DNA from: Escherichia coli
GTDB lineage: Bacteria > Pseudomonadota > Gammaproteobacteria > Enterobacterales > Enterobacteriaceae
Assembly: GCF_003790525.1 (NCBI RefSeq)
Contig: NZ_CP033636.1
Reading direction: 5' to 3' (one strand)
DNA length: 64,000 nucleotides
Within the stretch, counting starts at the first letter, position 1; each line of letters starts with the position of its first letter. This document shows positions 30,001 through 36,000 of this stretch, piece by piece. The position numbers are program-made.

Positions 30001-33000
30001 TACGATCCGCAAACCACACCAACTCGGAACATGGGTGCAGTGGCTGAATTGTTCCGGGCGTGTCGCAAACACTTTTGGAGGCAGCTATCACCCAGCCAAG
30101 GCCGGTATTTTCATGCTTTGTTAACCTTTTGCAGTCCGAAGAGGCGCGCAAGCAAATCATTCTGGTCATTGACGGTCCAGCCGCCTGAAAAGCCAAAGCC
30201 CTTCCGCAGCCACAGCATCGCCTCGAAACCCGCGATGGTTCGCCGCGCCGTGTTAAAGGATTGGAAACCGCCGATCTTCGGCATGTTCTTCTTCACCCGG
30301 AAATGGTCGCTCTCAATCCCCTGCTGGAGATGTTTGGTCACATAATGCACGGGATCGGGATGGAGAAGCCCATCATCAACCGACGTTTTGATCGTTGACG
30401 GGAAGGTGTTGGCCCCGTCCGTCCCAATCCTGTTCGGCGACAACAAGGGTTCATCTTTAAGCATCTTTCGGAAGAACCGCTTGGCAGCGTCGAGATCGCG
30501 CTTAGCGGTCAGCAGGAAATCCACCGGATTGCCATGCTTATCGATGGCTCGGTACAGATAGCGCCATTTGCCGCGGATCTTGACATAGGTCTCATCAATC
30601 CGGACCGAGCCGCAATGGGGTCGACGAAACTGCCGCAGCCGTTTCTCGATGACAGGTGCATAAGCCAATACCCAGCGGTTGATCGTGCTATGATCGACCT
30701 CGAAGCCCCGCTCGCGAAACATCTCTTCCAAGTCACGATAGCTGAGCGGGTAGCGCAAGTACCAGGCAACCGCCTGTACAATCAGCCAGGCCTCGAAATG
30801 CCTGCCCTTGAAATCATCCTTCGACTGGCGCTTCAGCTTTTCGGCAATGGTATTCAAAATCATCGGCTCGCTCCGCAATATCAGGAGCGGCAACTTCTCT
30901 CCCCATGGTCAACATCGAGTTAACCTGAAGAATTTGCGACAAGGCCATGCGTTCCGCTCCGGAGATGTCTGGCTTACTAGGTCCCGGCGCTATGGCGATC
31001 TGAAACACGCACTCGTTCCGGCACAATCCATCGCGGAAGGCGGTCGTCTCGCTGTGCCATTGCGGCCGGAGGAATGGCTGGCAGACCGGCAAGCTCGCCT
31101 CGACATGCGGTTGCGCGAGCTTGGCCGTGCCGCTCGCGCAGGCACGATCCCGGGCGGGTCGATTGAAAACGGCGTTCTGCATATCGAGAAACTCGAAGCC
31201 GCCGCGCCGACAGGCGCCGAAGATCTGGTGCTCGATCTCTACAAGCAGATCCCGCCCACGCGCATCACCGATCTCCTGCTGGAGGTGGATGCGGCGACCG
31301 GCTTCACCGAAGCGTTCACCCATCTGCGCACAGGAGCACCCTGCGCTGACCGGATCGGGCTAATGAACGTTATCTTGGCGGAAGGGATCAACCTCGGCTT
31401 GCGCAAAATGGCGGATGCGACAAACACCCACACCTTCTGGGAATTGATCCGCATTGGACGGTGGCATGTCGAGGGCGAAGCCTATGACCGGGCGCTGGCC
31501 ATGGTGGTCGAGGCACAGGCAGCGTTACCCATGGCCCGGTTCTGGGGCATGGGCACGTCGGCTTCGAGCGACGGACAGTTCTTCGTCGCTACAGAGCAAG
31601 GTGAGGCCATGAACCTGGTCAACGCGAAATATGGCAATACCCCGGGCCTGAAAGCCTATAGCCACGTCTCCGACCAATATGCGCCGTTCGCAACCCAGGT
31701 GATTCCTGCAACGGCAAGCGAAGCGCCTTACATCCTCGATGGCCTGCTGATGAACGATGCTGGACGCCATATCCGCGAGCAGTTCACCGACACGGGCGGC
31801 TTCACCGATCACGTCTTTGCCGCATGTGCCATTCTCGGCTACCGGTTCGCTCCGCGCATCCGCGACCTGCCATCCAAACGGCTCTACGCGTTCAATCCGT
31901 CGGCCGCCCCGGCGCACCTGCGAGCGTTGATCGGCGGAAAGGTCAACCAAGCCATGATCGAGCGCAATTGGCCCGACATCCTGCGCATCGCCGCCACCAT
32001 TGCTGCCGGGACCGTCGCGCCAAGCCAGATTCTGCGGAAACTCGCCTCCTATCCGCGGCAGAACGAGCTCGCGACAGCCCTGCGGGAAGTCGGTCGCGTC
32101 GAGCGCACCCTGTTCATGATCGACTGGATTCTGGATGCCGAACTCCAACGGCGTGCCCAGATCGGGCTCAACAAAGGCGAAGCTCATCATGCGCTGAAGC
32201 GGGCAATCAGCTTCCACCGCCGCGGTGAAATCCGCGACCGTTCCGCCGAAGGCCAGCATTACCGCATCGCCGGCATGAATCTGCTCGCCGCCATCATCAT
32301 CTTCTGGAACACCATGAAGCTCGGCGAGGTCGTTGCAAACCAGAAACGCGATGGAAAGCTGCTATCGCCCGATCTCTTGGCCCATGTTTCGCCGCTCGGA
32401 TGGGAACACATCAATCTCACCGGAGAATATCGCTGGCCAAAGCCTTAGCGTAGGATTCCGCCCCCTCCCGCAAACGACCCCGTGATGACCCTGCAGGCAT
32501 CCCCTGAGACCCGGTTAATGCGCGCCGAGGTGCAGCGGCATTATCCGCACATCTGGCAGGAGCTGGAGGGGCTGGCGCAGGGACTGGAGGCCACTGTTGA
32601 TCAGGTCTTTGCCTGGAACTGCCGTGGCGATCTGGTGCGCTCAACGTCGGATGGCTGTACGACGGTGGCCGGGGTAAACGCCGCAGGCGAGCGGATTATC
32701 GCGCATAATGAAGACGGTTTTCCTCAGTTACGGGATGAATGCTTGCTGGCTACCATTACTCCGAGTCGCGGTCTGAGCTTTACGAGTTTTGCCTATCCGG
32801 GGTCGATTTGCGGCCACACCTTTGCGGTAAATGAAAAAGGTATCGTTAACACGGTGAATAACATCCGTGCAGTGTATCGTCCGCAGGGATTACCGCGTCA
32901 GATCCTGGCTCGCGCCTCGCTGAATGCGAACACCCTCGACGAGGCCATCACTATACTTACCGGCCAGCCGCGATCCGGGGCGTTTCACCATACGCTCGGG

Positions 33001-36000
33001 CAGCTGGGCGATGCGCGGCTGTTCAGCGTTGAGGCCACCGGTCAAGGCTGTTCCGTTCTACCCCTGACGACGGTAACCGGGCATGCCAACCATCTGGTGC
33101 ATGCGGCACTGGCTGGCGTTGAGCAGATCGTTACCGACAGTTCAGCGTCGCGGCAGTTACGCCTCGTGCAGTGGCGGGAAACGCAACCTCCGTTTGACGC
33201 CGCGGCGGCAAAAACCATTCTCTCAGATACCCATGACGCAGAACTGCCAATTTACCGGCTGGCTGCCGACGATCCGGATGAGGAGAACACCCTCGCCACG
33301 GCAGTTTTCACCCTCGATGCCAACCACGTCAGGTGGCAAATTTTCGACATTAACCGCGACGATGCTAAATTTCATGGAGAAGTGCGTGGGTGAAATAGCC
33401 GGTCGTCAGTCATAAAGGGCAGGGGAGTACCGTTGGCCCGGCGTTCGATAGTACCGTCCGGATACTGCCAGATATCGGCGTCCAGGGAGATGTCCTGAAG
33501 CGCGGTGTCCGGAATTTCAGGTTTGTGTCTCTACAAAGACTAACTATCAGAAAAACTCATCGAGCATCAAATGAAACTGCAATTTATTCATATCAGGATT
33601 ATCAATACCATATTTTTGAAAAAGCCGTTTCTGTAATGAAGGAGAAAATTCACCGAGGCAGTTCCATAGGATGGCAAGATCCTGGTATCGGTCTGCGATT
33701 CCGACTCGTCCAACATCAATACAACCTATTAATTTCCCCTCGTCAAAAATAAGGTTATCAAGTGAGAAATCACCATGAGTGACGACTGAATCCGGTGAGA
33801 ATGGCAAAAGCTTATGCATTTCTTTCCAGACTTGTTCAACAGGCCAGCCATTACGCTCGTCATCAAAATCACTCGCATCAACCAAACCGTTATTCATTCG
33901 TGATTGCGCCTGAGCGAGACGAAATACGCGATCGCTGTTAAAAGGACAATTACTAACAGGAATCGAATGCAACCGGCGCAGGAACGCTGCCAGCGCATCA
34001 ACAATATTTTCACCTGAATCAGGATATTCTTCTAATACCTGGAATGCTGTTTTCCCGGGGAGCGCAGTGGTGAGTAACCATGCATCATCAGGAGTACGGA
34101 TAAAATGCTTGATGGTCGGAAGAGGCATAAATGCCGTCAGCCAGTTTAGTCTGACCATCTCATCTGTAACATCATTGGCAACGCTACCTTTGCCATGTTT
34201 CAGAAACAACTCTGGCGCATCGGGCTTCCCATACAATCGATAGATTGTCGCACCTGATTGCCCGACATTATCGCGAGCCCATTTATACCCATATAAATCA
34301 GCATCCAGGTTGGAATTTAATCGCGGCCTCGAGCAAGACGTTTCCCGTTGAATATGGCTCATAACACCCCTTGTATTACTGTTTATGTAAGCAGACAGTT
34401 TTATTGTTCATGATGATATATTTTTATCTTGTGCAATGTAACATCAGAGATTTTGAGACACAACGTGGATTTGTTGAATAAATCGAACTTTTGCTGAGTT
34501 GAAGGATCAGATCACGCATCTTCCCGACAACGCAGACCGTTCCGTGGCAAAGCAAAAGTTCAAAATCACCAACTGGCCCACCTACAATAAAGGGGTCGTT
34601 TGCGGGAGAGGGCGAAATCCTACGCTAAGGCTTTGGCCAACGATATTCTCCGGTAAGATTGATGTGTTCCCAGGGGATAGGAGAAGTCGCTTGATATCTA
34701 GTATGACGTCTGTCGCACCTGCTTGATCGCGGCCGCGATAGCTAGATCGCGTTGCTCCTCTTCTCCATCCGCGTTCCAAGCTGCGGAAAGGCACCCATAA
34801 GCGTACGCCTGGTCGAGCAGGCGACGCGGATCGACGTCCAGCGCACGAGAGAATGCGTCCGCCATCTGTGCAATGCGTCTAGGATCGAGACAAAGGTCGT
34901 CTCTGTCAGCCGGATCGTAGAACATATTGGCGGCGCCAAAGCCCACTTCACCGACCAGACCGACGGGATCTATCACCAGCCAGCCGCGACTGGAGAACAT
35001 GATGTTTTCATGATGCAGATCGCCATGTAGCCCACGCAGTTCCGAGGCATTGCTCATCATTTGATCGGCTATAATCGCCGCGTGGACGTAGTCAGTTTGA
35101 CAACCTGCGTTTTGATCATCGCGCGCCCGCTGAAACAAAGCTGCAAAGCGATCCCGGATCGGGAGAAGGGCAGAAGGCAGGGGTTCCTCAGATGCGGCAT
35201 ACAGCTTCGCCATTAGTTCCGCTGCAATTTCGGTCGCCTGGTAGTCGCCGTGCTCGGCAACGATGTGAGAGAGCATTCGCTCCCCGGCATATTCGAGCAA
35301 CATCAGATTGTTCTCACGACCGAGCAACCGGACTGCTCCCCTCCCATTGCGCCATACCAGATAGTCGGCCCCGCGCAGTTCATCAGCAATGTCTTCTATA
35401 GGTTTCAATTCCTTGACGATTGCAGGAGTCCCGTCTGGCAATGAAACTTTCCAAACGAGGCTGGAAAAGGTGTCCGCAATGAGAACAGGTTGCGAAACGT
35501 GCCAATGAGCAGGAAAAACAGGCGGCATGAACATCAACCCCAAGTCAGAGGGTCCAATCGCAGATAGAAGGCAAGGCGTTCGCGGTCGGGGGCTTCGATC
35601 CCCAATACATTGAATAGGACAGCGAAGGCGCGCTCTGCTTCATCTGGCGCTGCCCAGTTCTCTTCGGCGTTAGCAATCATGAGTGCCAAATCGGCATAGC
35701 GATCTGCTGTTCCGAGCCGCCCAAGGTCGATCAGACCCGTGCATTGAAGAGTTTTAGGGTCCACCATGAAGTTCGGCATGCAGGGATCACCATGGCAAAC
35801 AACCATATCGGTGCGCTCTTGGTCGAGCCGCACCGGTAGCTCTCGTTCGACACGAGCCAAAAGATCGAGCTGCGGCGTACTCTTGTCCTCGTCCGGTAAG
35901 AAGTCGGGATTGACGGCATTGCGGGACACCACATCAACGGCGCGTCCGAACATTCGCGACAGCCTGCGCTCAAACGGACATTGATCAACCGATAGGCTGT

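What the first reader, a model, noticed from the sequence alone, without database searches (positions are those of the whole stretch)
32442..34672. Two Tn5393-type terminal repeats face outward around a Tn903 remnant carrying aph(3')-Ia
One IR sits at the 3' end of a truncated tnpA, the other downstream of strB. Their outer ends bracket a 2.1-kb segment containing a C45-peptidase-like ORF, aph(3')-Ia and a 125-bp IS903 end cut precisely by the second IR. The two IRs differ at two positions. This implies two Tn5393 copies, or a Tn5393 insertion into IS903 followed by rearrangement, and there is no 5-bp duplication.
Basis: partly seen in the sequence, partly recalled or inferred. Interest (0 to 1): 0.35.

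Follow-up and report, generated by a model that had tools for sequence, protein, structure and literature searches.

The report
Tn5393 ends bracketing an aphA1 fragment
The window holds a common, already-sequenced antibiotic-resistance mosaic: the facing ends of two eroded copies of the streptomycin transposon Tn5393 enclose a 2.1-kb kanamycin-resistance fragment, which is ordinary except that the fragment still carries the gene's original Klebsiella michiganensis neighbour.

Summary
IRL (32401-32481, end of a truncated tnpA) and IRR (34592-34672, downstream of strB) are the two 81-bp ends of Tn5393. Their outer tips face a 2,110-bp segment X (32482-34591), made of a 5'-truncated C45 peptidase gene, aph(3')-Ia, and the first 125 bp of an IS903-group element cut exactly by IRR. 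The flanks (GTGAT / ATAAA) are not a 5-bp duplication.

- The IRs differ at 4 of 81 positions (2 in the terminal 40). An intact, duplication-flanked Tn5393 has the same two IR sequences, so the differences say nothing about copy number.
- X is not simply a Tn903 remnant. Only the IS903/aphA1 junction is Tn903-type. The 3' flank and C45 gene are aphA1's native K. michiganensis context (Moran & Hall 2025).

The module is 100% identical in at least 138 plasmids and 112 complete E. coli genomes. Less eroded relatives show two partial, directly oriented Tn5393 copies that overlap by 376 bp and differ in IS1133 content, so there were two copies. In the window the outer halves were removed by an IS6-family element (probably ISEc59) on one side and by IS1133, IS1, IS10 and IS26 on the other. 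Neither reciprocal junction was found.

Verdict: an immobile fossil of known elements, low interest, with a small addition to aphA1 history.

The parts
30111..30943 (-). IS6-family element (not IS26; probably ISEc59) that truncates the left Tn5393 copy
   Evidence: RefSeq annotates an 'IS6 family transposase' on the identical DNA of pG3X16-2-2. It follows aac(3)-IVa and aph(4)-Ia, as in the IS26-aacC4-aph(4)-Ia-ISEc59 unit named in PMC8239412. Tn5393 homology starts at 30944. The left boundary of the IS was not determined.
30944..32481 (+). Left Tn5393 fragment (Tn5393 coordinates 3933-5470): 3' 1.5 kb of tnpA (stop at 32448) plus IRL
   Evidence: 99.8% identical over 1,538 bp to the complete Tn5393 of L043. 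Annotated as 'Tn3 family transposase, missing N-terminus' on identical DNA.
32401..32481 (-). IRL, the 81-bp terminal inverted repeat of Tn5393, with its outer tip at 32481
   Evidence: Identical to the IRL of the duplication-flanked Tn5393 in L043. Aligned with IRR.
32482..33393 (+). C45-family peptidase gene lacking its first 37 codons; a K. michiganensis-type chromosomal gene
   Evidence: 98.2% DNA identity to K. michiganensis DSM 25444 (L005) over 32482-33533. The full-length gene is 340 aa in L006, next to glnHPQ and aphA1. Context is described in PMC12670165.
33547..34362 (-). aph(3')-Ia (aphA1), intact, 271 aa (WP_000018321.1)
   Evidence: Annotated on identical DNA; AMRFinder identity 100%.
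34363..34466 (-). 104-bp aphA1 upstream region containing the proposed promoter TTGTGT-17-TACATT
   Evidence: The motif was read directly from the sequence. The promoter was proposed in PMC12670165. The junction with the IS is the same as in a Tn903-type plasmid, L051.
34467..34591 (+). nt 1-125 of an IS903B-like element (terminal GGATTTG instead of GGCTTTG), cut by IRR
   Evidence: 124/125 identical to the intact IS903B of L045. PGAP annotates 'IS5/IS1182 family transposase, incomplete'.
34592..34672 (+). IRR, the 81-bp terminal inverted repeat of Tn5393, with its outer tip at 34592
   Evidence: Identical to the IRR of the intact Tn5393 in L043. It differs from the RSF1010/ARI-B-type IRR of pSCEC2.
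34592..36405 (-). Right Tn5393 fragment (Tn5393 coordinates 1-1814): IRR, strB (34698-35534), strA (35534-36337) and 68 bp upstream
   Evidence: One mismatch in 1,814 bp against L043 (Tn coordinate 819 = window 35410).
36406..36526 (+). First 121 bp of IS1133 at its canonical Tn5393 site (after Tn coordinate 1814)
   Evidence: 100% identical to the IS1133 of pCFS3273-1.
37563..38120 (-). IS10 remnant abutting IS26. IS1 lies between this remnant and the IS1133 remnant (CDS 36630-37327).
   Evidence: BLAST to the IS10 of L001.
26842..27661 (-). IS26, directly oriented with the copy at 38121-38940. The two bound the 10.5-kb segment that holds the module.
38121..38940 (-). IS26, the right-hand boundary copy

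Best explanation
This is an inert relic of two directly oriented Tn5393 copies that once flanked an IS903-aphA1-C45 segment.

Shown:
- The segment is a Klebsiella michiganensis-type aphA1 region that already carried an IS903-group element 104 bp upstream of aphA1.
- One Tn5393 end (IRR) is joined inside that IS903 at nt 125.
- Another Tn5393 end (IRL) is joined inside the C45 peptidase gene 2.1 kb away.
- The two junctions do not share a target duplication, so they come from two separate end-joining events.
- In less eroded relatives the two flanking Tn5393 parts overlap and are different variants.

Inferred:
- The second junction arose in one of three ways: a second insertion in the same orientation; an intramolecular replicative transposition whose products recombined; or a crossover within X between two molecules, each with one insertion.
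- Only the left copy kept res. The Tn5393 resolvase therefore could not delete X, and kanamycin selection kept it.
- The outer halves were later removed or exchanged by other elements and by homologous recombination through strAB.

In the window the left copy is cut at Tn5393 coordinate 3933 by an IS6-family element. The right copy ends at IS1133, followed by IS1, an IS10 remnant and IS26. The window has no tnpR or res and only a partial tnpA, so nothing here can transpose as Tn5393. The module now travels passively inside an IS26-bounded multiresistance region. It should still confer kanamycin/neomycin resistance (intact aphA1 with its upstream region), and possibly streptomycin resistance (strA-strB).
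For: - IR identity to an intact, duplication-flanked Tn5393.
- Mapping of both parts onto Tn5393 coordinates. Window: 3933-5470 and 1-1814. pSH696_117 type: 2318-5470 and 1-1845 by BLAST, reinterpreted as 1-1839 plus an IS1133-variant end. pSE08-00436-1, pCFS3292-2, pCFS3273-1 and pVet9: 1782-5470 with 1-1778, 1-1814, or 1-1814::IS1133::1812-2157.
- The 376-bp stretch 1782-2157 is present on both sides in pCFS3273-1 and pVet9, and five further records give the same hit profile. The left copy runs uninterrupted through 1812-1814, where the right copy carries IS1133.
- X and both junctions are 100% identical in at least 138 plasmids and 112 E. coli genomes from IncHI2, IncF and other backbones, which indicates a single origin.
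- The outer right flank differs between lineages: RSF1010-type sul2, canonical IS1133, or an IS1133 variant carrying Tn10, as in the published Tn5393h. The left flank of the most complete forms is the aacC2/ISKpn12 region, as in the published Tn5393g.
- Flanks GTGAT and ATAAA.
- K. michiganensis origin of the aphA1-C45 linkage.
Against: - In the window itself, and in pSH696_117-type plasmids, the two Tn5393 parts do not overlap. On their own they fit a single, circularly permuted copy.
- The overlap in other plasmids could in principle have been brought in later by recombination through strAB with another Tn5393.
- Neither reciprocal junction (IRL|ATAAA|IS903 nt 126 onward, or C45 5' part ending GTGAT|IRR) exists in 72,556 plasmids or 5,426 E. 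coli genomes. The two-insertion intermediate is therefore not documented.
- From general knowledge of the Tn3 family, target immunity should disfavour a second insertion 2 kb from a resident copy. Whether Tn5393 shows immunity was not tested here.
Confidence: 0.75

Rival explanations
1. Single-copy circle. A Tn5393 already sitting in IS903 attacked the C45 gene on the same molecule (deletion-type intramolecular replicative transposition). This produced a circle of one Tn5393 plus X. The circle was then opened inside tnpR and captured by an IS, in the manner of an IS26 translocatable unit. There would never have been two copies side by side.
For: - This mechanism predicts exactly an IRR-X-IRL joint with no shared 5-bp duplication.
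- The Tn5393 parts in the window and in pSH696_117-type plasmids are complementary and do not overlap. In pSE08-00436-1 they almost abut, at 1782 and 1778.
- No reciprocal junctions survive.
Against: - pCFS3273-1, pVet9 and five similar records carry Tn coordinates 1782-2157 twice.
- The two sides are different Tn5393 variants, without and with IS1133 at 1812-1814.
- The near-abutting 1778/1782 boundaries in pSE08-00436-1 are the independent RSF1010-type and aacC2/ISKpn12-type junctions, not one IS target site.
- A circle without a replication origin would have had to be rescued before it was lost.
Confidence: 0.15
2. Recombination between two separately hit molecules. Two copies of the IS903-aphA1-C45 region, on different replicons, each received one Tn5393: one in IS903 and one in C45. 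A homologous crossover within X then joined the two junctions.
For: - It avoids the problem of cis target immunity.
- It explains why the two flanking copies are different Tn5393 variants.
- Tn5393 has hit IS903-group elements more than once: a second IRR|IS903 junction, at IS903 nt 936, is widespread.
Against: - No plasmid in the collection carries an intact IS903-aphA1-C45 region or either single-insertion form.
- The present sequence cannot distinguish this from the best explanation, of which it is really one sub-route.
Confidence: 0.08
3. Chance similarity or an assembly artefact.
For: None.
Against: - 77 of 81 positions are complementary, and each arm is 100% identical to the corresponding end of an intact Tn5393.
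- The same 2.5 kb is found base-for-base in more than 100 independently finished assemblies.
Confidence: 0.01

Closest known systems
Tn5393 / Tn5393c (Tn3-family streptomycin transposon: tnpA-res-tnpR-strA-strB, 81-bp IRs)
   Same: Both IRs, the tnpA 3' end, strA and strB are 99.8-100% identical to an intact 5,470-bp copy.
   Different: The window has only two non-contiguous fragments, in permuted order (tnpA end-IRL ... IRR-strB-strA). It has no tnpR or res, no complete tnpA, and no target duplication.
Published Tn5393 variants g, h and e (names from the review PMC10333595 and Cain & Hall 2011 as cited there)
   Same: The aacC2/ISKpn12 flank of the left copy in the most complete relatives matches the description of Tn5393g. 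The IS1133::Tn10 flank of the right copy in pSH696_117-type plasmids matches Tn5393h. Tn5393e also combines aphA1 with Tn5393.
   Different: In Tn5393e, aphA1 (in the IS26-bounded Tn6023) lies inside the transposon, upstream of strAB. Here aphA1 lies outside, between the outer tips of two copies. I could not read Cain & Hall 2011, so I cannot say whether this arrangement is mentioned there.
Tn903 (IS903-aphA1-IS903, 980-bp passenger)
   Same: The IS903 end and the 104-bp spacer to the aphA1 start are joined at the same nucleotide as in a Tn903-type plasmid, L051. That region is 99% identical, with 10 differences in 1,046 bp.
   Different: The 3' flank diverges at the stop codon: TGATAGTTAGTC... 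here, TAATCAGAATTGG... in a Tn602/Tn903-type copy. There is no second IS903, and a C45 peptidase gene follows instead.
TnaphA1-pIE545 and the K. michiganensis chromosomal aphA1 locus (Moran & Hall 2025, PMC12670165)
   Same: aphA1 is followed by the C45 peptidase gene, as in pIE545 and K. michiganensis YZUMF202001. The C45 part is 98.2% identical to the K. michiganensis type strain, and L006 has glnHPQ-C45-aphA1.
   Different: The paper places IS102 116 bp upstream of aphA1. Here an IS903B-like end lies 104 bp upstream. glnQ and the C45 5' end were removed by Tn5393. A 54-bp stretch between aphA1 and C45 is missing relative to L006 and Rts1. pIE545 itself (PV671756) was not available for comparison.
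Replicative-transposition cointegrate or tandem structure of Tn3-family elements
   Same: Two directly oriented copies flank a segment, with IRL of one copy and IRR of the other facing it.
   Different: The enclosed segment is a 2.1-kb fragment, not a replicon. It does not begin and end with the same 5 bp. The copies are unequal variants and are truncated.

Membership tests
Tn5393 (Tn3 family) | 81-bp terminal inverted repeats beginning GGGGTCGTTTGCGGGA | tested here: met
   Both arms are 100% identical to the IRL and IRR of an intact copy (L043).
Tn5393 (Tn3 family) | Complete tnpA, res and tnpR (needed for autonomous transposition and resolution) | tested here: not met
   The window holds only Tn coordinates 3933-5470 and 1-1814. 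tnpR, res and the first 1.4 kb of tnpA are absent.
Tn5393 (Tn3 family) | strA-strB adjacent to IRR | tested here: met
   The region 34592-36405 has one mismatch in 1,814 bp.
Tn5393 (Tn3 family) | 5-bp target-site duplication flanking the two IRs of one insertion | tested here: not met
   The flanks are GTGAT and ATAAA. The intact reference has TGCTC on both sides.
Tn903 | IS903 end joined to aphA1 with a 104-bp spacer | tested here: met
   The junction is the same as in L051 (a Tn903-type Col plasmid), apart from base 3 of the IS.
Tn903 | A short 3' flank followed by a second, inverted IS903 (980-bp passenger per PMC12670165, Table 1) | tested here: not met
   The 3' flank diverges from the Tn602/Tn903-type sequence at the stop codon and runs into the C45 gene. 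There is no second IS903.
K. michiganensis-derived aphA1 passenger (TnaphA1-pIE545 type) | C45 peptidase gene immediately downstream of aphA1, at least 98% identical to the K. michiganensis chromosome | tested here: met
   98.2% identity to DSM 25444 over 1,053 bp. The aphA1-C45 linkage is seen in L006.
K. michiganensis-derived aphA1 passenger (TnaphA1-pIE545 type) | Bounded by IS102 lying 116 bp upstream of aphA1, with glnQ and a partial glnP downstream | tested here: not met
   An IS903B-like end lies 104 bp upstream, and glnQ is absent because IRL cuts C45. No direct comparison with PV671756 was possible.
IS26 pseudo-compound transposon / translocatable unit | A segment bounded by directly oriented IS26 copies | tested here: met
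   IS26 at 26842-27661 and 38121-38940 are in direct orientation.
IS26 pseudo-compound transposon / translocatable unit | 8-bp target duplication, or evidence that the segment moves as a unit | not tested
   The flanks were not examined. The IS26 positions differ between lineages.

The most novel reading that the evidence does not exclude
X may be the only surviving plasmid-borne piece, among 72,556 plasmids, that joins the Tn903-type IS903/aphA1 junction to aphA1's native K. michiganensis neighbour, the C45 peptidase gene. On that reading it would be either a fragment of the progenitor from which Tn903-type elements were cut down, or a fourth independent capture of aphA1 beyond the three proposed by Moran & Hall 2025. 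It would have been preserved only because two Tn5393 ends fenced it in.
Probability: 0.35. Interest if true: 0.3.

Novelty: new member of a known kind. Interest (0 to 1): 0.15.

Why it matters
Practically, it matters little. The module is a frequent, clonal building block of IncHI2 and IncF multiresistance regions, and it links kanamycin/neomycin and streptomycin resistance genes.

It is useful in two ways:
- The two exact junctions, IRL|GTGATGACCC and CTACAATAAA|IRR, are a lineage marker for tracing this module across plasmids.
- It adds a further aphA1 context to the recently published K. michiganensis origin story. That context has a Tn903-type upstream junction and a native downstream gene.

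It does not reveal a new mechanism.

Tried and rejected
1. IR differences as evidence of two distinct transposons. Rejected, because an intact single Tn5393 has the same IRL/IRR pair.
2. Single circularly permuted copy. The non-overlap in the window and in pSH696_117 suggested it, as did several records covering my synthetic query in about 7,580 bp. Mapping then showed left boundaries at 1782 and right parts reaching 2157, which is an overlap.
3. Searches for the reciprocal junctions. Long and short synthetic junction queries found nothing in plasmids or in E. coli genomes. The long query instead picked up an unrelated IRR|IS903 nt 936 junction.
4. Search for an intact IS903-aphA1-C45 progenitor. 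The 12 plasmids with an intact IS903 at this junction are Tn903-, Tn602- or Tn2680-type and lack C45.
5. Looking beyond Tn10 in pSH696_117 for the missing half of the right copy. It is absent.
6. Literature. No paper in the searchable library describes this arrangement. L'Abee-Lund & Sorum 2000 is not held, and I did not try to retrieve Cain & Hall 2011.
7. SNP comparison of the duplicated 376 bp. There are no differences, so it is uninformative.

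
Full report
**Observation**

The sequence and the repeat scan show one inverted pair at this position, 32388-32486 versus 34587-34685. Alignment and comparison with an intact element place the true repeat units at 32401-32481 (IRL) and 34592-34672 (IRR), 81 bp each.

IRL lies at the end of a + strand tnpA fragment whose stop is at 32448. IRR lies 26 bp from the stop of strB, which is on the - strand. The outer tips (GGGGTCG...) point at each other across 2,110 bp, called X here (32482-34591).

RefSeq annotation of a 100% identical plasmid, pG3X16-2-2, gives the local gene order:
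- IS26, aac(3)-IVa, aph(4)-Ia, an IS6-family element
- truncated Tn3-family tnpA
- truncated C45 peptidase gene, aph(3')-Ia, an IS5-family fragment
- strB, strA, IS1, an IS10 fragment, IS26

The arms differ at IR positions 18, 24, 49 and 64.

**Are these Tn5393 ends?**

Yes. A complete 5,470-bp tnpA-res-tnpR-strA-strB element in pEcl5-1 (L043:2684-8153) is flanked by a 5-bp duplication, TGCTC. Its IRL and IRR are identical, base for base, to the window's two arms. The four IRL/IRR differences are therefore native to one transposon and carry no information about copy number.

A different IRR variant exists in the RSF1010/ARI-B lineage (pSCEC2). The two IRR-strB variants are about equally common among plasmids.

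**What is X?**

The IS fragment (34467-34591) is nt 1-125 of an IS903B-like element, 124/125 identical to an intact copy. IRR begins at the next base. The predicted target is ATAAA, IS903 nt 121-125.

The IS end is joined to the 104 bp upstream of aphA1 at the same nucleotide as in a Tn903-type Col plasmid, L051. In Rts1 the IS903B sits 1 bp away, with its own 9-bp duplication.

Downstream of aphA1, X does not follow Tn903. A Tn602/Tn903-type copy (L050) reads TAATCAGAATTGG... after the last codon. X, Rts1 and a chromosomal-type contig (L006) read TGATAG(T/C)TAGTCTTTG.... X then continues into a C45 peptidase gene.

That C45 part is 98.2% identical to the K. michiganensis type-strain chromosome (L005). 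L006 carries glnH-glnP-glnQ-C45 (340 aa)-aphA1. This is the arrangement that Moran & Hall (2025, PMC12670165) describe as aphA1's native context and as the passenger of the IS102-bounded TnaphA1-pIE545.

X differs from that element in three ways:
- The IS lies 104 bp upstream of aphA1, not 116 bp, and is IS903B-like.
- IRL has removed the first 37 codons of C45 and everything beyond.
- 54 bp between aphA1 and C45 are missing.

Among 72,556 plasmids, 139 carry the C45 part and 138 of them carry it in this Tn5393-bracketed form. Twelve plasmids have an intact IS903 at the aphA1 junction, but those examined are Tn903-, Tn602- or Tn2680-type without C45.

**Distribution**

The 2.5-kb region is 100% identical in plasmids of E. 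coli, Salmonella, E. fergusonii, Klebsiella and Shigella, on IncHI2, IncF and other backbones. It is also present in 112 of 5,426 complete E. coli genomes. This is one clonal module that has been passed around.

**One copy or two?**

I mapped each locus onto the reference Tn5393, with coordinates running from IRR (1) to IRL (5470).

| Locus | Left part | Right part |
|---|---|---|
| Window | 3933-5470 | 1-1814 |
| pSH696_117 and NZ_CP013027 | 2318-5470 (cut by IS26) | 1-1845 by BLAST |
| pSE08-00436-1 | 1782-5470 | 1-1778, then sul2-repC (RSF1010-type junction) |
| pCFS3292-2 | 1782-5470 | 1-1814, then IS1133 sequence |
| pCFS3273-1 and pVet9 | 1782-5470 | 1-1814, IS1133, 1812-2157, then IS26 |

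In pCFS3273-1 and pVet9, coordinates 1782-2157 occur on both sides of X. Five further records give the same hit profile.

The left copy runs straight through 1812-1814, where the right copy carries IS1133. The flanking copies are therefore two different Tn5393 variants in direct orientation.

Only the left copy retains res. This explains why the resolvase has not deleted X.

The outer right flank varies between lineages:
- RSF1010-type.
- Canonical IS1133.
- An IS1133 variant with TGGTCT ends, inserted at 1837-1839 and interrupted by Tn10, as in the published Tn5393h. On this reading the pSH696_117 right part is 1-1839 plus the IS1133-variant end.

This variation points to repeated homologous exchange through strAB. 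The left flank of the most complete forms is the aacC2/ISKpn11/ISKpn12 region, as in the published Tn5393g.

**How the two junctions arose**

Each junction has a complete IR tip, so each was made by the transposase. GTGAT and ATAAA are unrelated, so they were made in two events. Three routes give the same product: a second insertion in cis, an intramolecular replicative event followed by recombination, or a crossover within X between two singly hit molecules.

I could not discriminate between these routes. Neither reciprocal junction exists in the plasmid or E. coli collections. The pure single-copy circle model is disfavoured by the overlap and by the IS1133 difference, but it is not excluded if those were later imports.

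**State in the window**

The left copy is cut at coordinate 3933 by an IS6-family element, probably ISEc59. The right copy ends at a 121-bp IS1133 remnant (36406-36526), followed by IS1, an IS10 remnant (37563-38120) and IS26. With no tnpR or res and only a partial tnpA, the arrangement is an immobile fossil. It sits inside a 10.5-kb segment bounded by directly oriented IS26 copies (26842-27661 and 38121-38940), within a region containing six IS26 copies.

**Verdict**

This is a real feature, but an ordinary one. It consists of known elements, and the exact sequence is already in more than 100 public records. I found no published description of this particular arrangement in the searchable literature, and I could not read Cain & Hall 2011, which catalogues Tn5393 variants. 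The modest new point is that X keeps the native K. michiganensis gene next to aphA1 while having the Tn903-type IS903 junction.

Noticed in passing
window 32470-32490 vs L006:5990-6010: The last 7 nt before the IRL tip's ACCCC (GCAAACG) are also the 7 nt that precede the insertion point in the intact C45 gene (GGCAAACG|GTGATG). Either the target happens to resemble the IR end, or this reflects the old report, recalled from memory, that Tn3 prefers sites resembling its ends.
   Followed up: no
L046:4881-5900 (pG3X16-2-3) and many other plasmids: A second, different Tn5393 IRR|IS903 junction, at IS903 nt 936 and in the same relative orientation, is widespread among small and large E. coli plasmids. 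Tn5393 has therefore landed in IS903-group elements at least twice.
   Followed up: partly
window 33534/33535: X lacks 54 bp that lie between the aphA1 stop and the C45 stop in L006 and Rts1. The shorter version is the one seen, at 100% identity, in the common short IS26-bounded aphA1 units.
   Followed up: partly
window 35410 (strB): There is a single C>T difference from the reference Tn5393 (Tn coordinate 819). This presumably explains why RefSeq names this protein 'APH(6)-I family' (WP_049195390.1) rather than APH(6)-Id. Its effect on function is unknown.
   Followed up: no
window 34469: The third base of the IS903 terminal repeat is A (GGATTTG) instead of C. This is the only difference from an intact IS903B in the 125 bp.
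   Followed up: no
L001:13130-13215 and L050:6274-6560: An IS1133 variant with TGGTCT...AGACCA ends is inserted at Tn5393 coordinates 1837-1839 (duplication CCA) rather than at the canonical 1812-1814. In L050 a Tn602-like IS903B-aphA1-IS903B transposon has replaced most of this IS1133, leaving its last 271 bp next to Tn5393 tnpR-tnpA.
   Followed up: partly
L052 (Rts1) 4200-5290 vs window 34455-34470: The IS903B in Rts1 Tn2680 sits 1 bp away from the Tn903/X junction and has its own 9-bp duplication, GACACAACG. This suggests an insertion hot spot just upstream of the aphA1 promoter rather than a shared event.
   Followed up: partly
L006 (JQCU01000494.1, labelled Acinetobacter idrijaensis MII): The contig carries K. 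michiganensis-type glnHPQ-C45-aphA1 at about 98% identity, with IS26 66 bp upstream of aphA1. The label may reflect contamination, mislabelling or horizontal transfer.
   Followed up: no
L016 (UQMY01000041.1, 'uncultured Collinsella' MAG): A 631-bp stretch at the contig end is 100% identical to the C45 fragment of X. This is probably plasmid DNA binned into a gut MAG.
   Followed up: no
window 36527-36629: About 100 bp between the IS1133 remnant and IS1 match none of the elements I compared.
   Followed up: no
window 14712-48450: There are six IS26 copies: four in direct orientation at 26842, 38121, 41721 and 42977, and two inverted at 14712 and 47629-47631. There are also class 1 integron, floR, aac(3)-IV/aph(4)-Ia and lnu(F) modules. 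The window is a typical IncHI2-type multiresistance region.
   Followed up: partly
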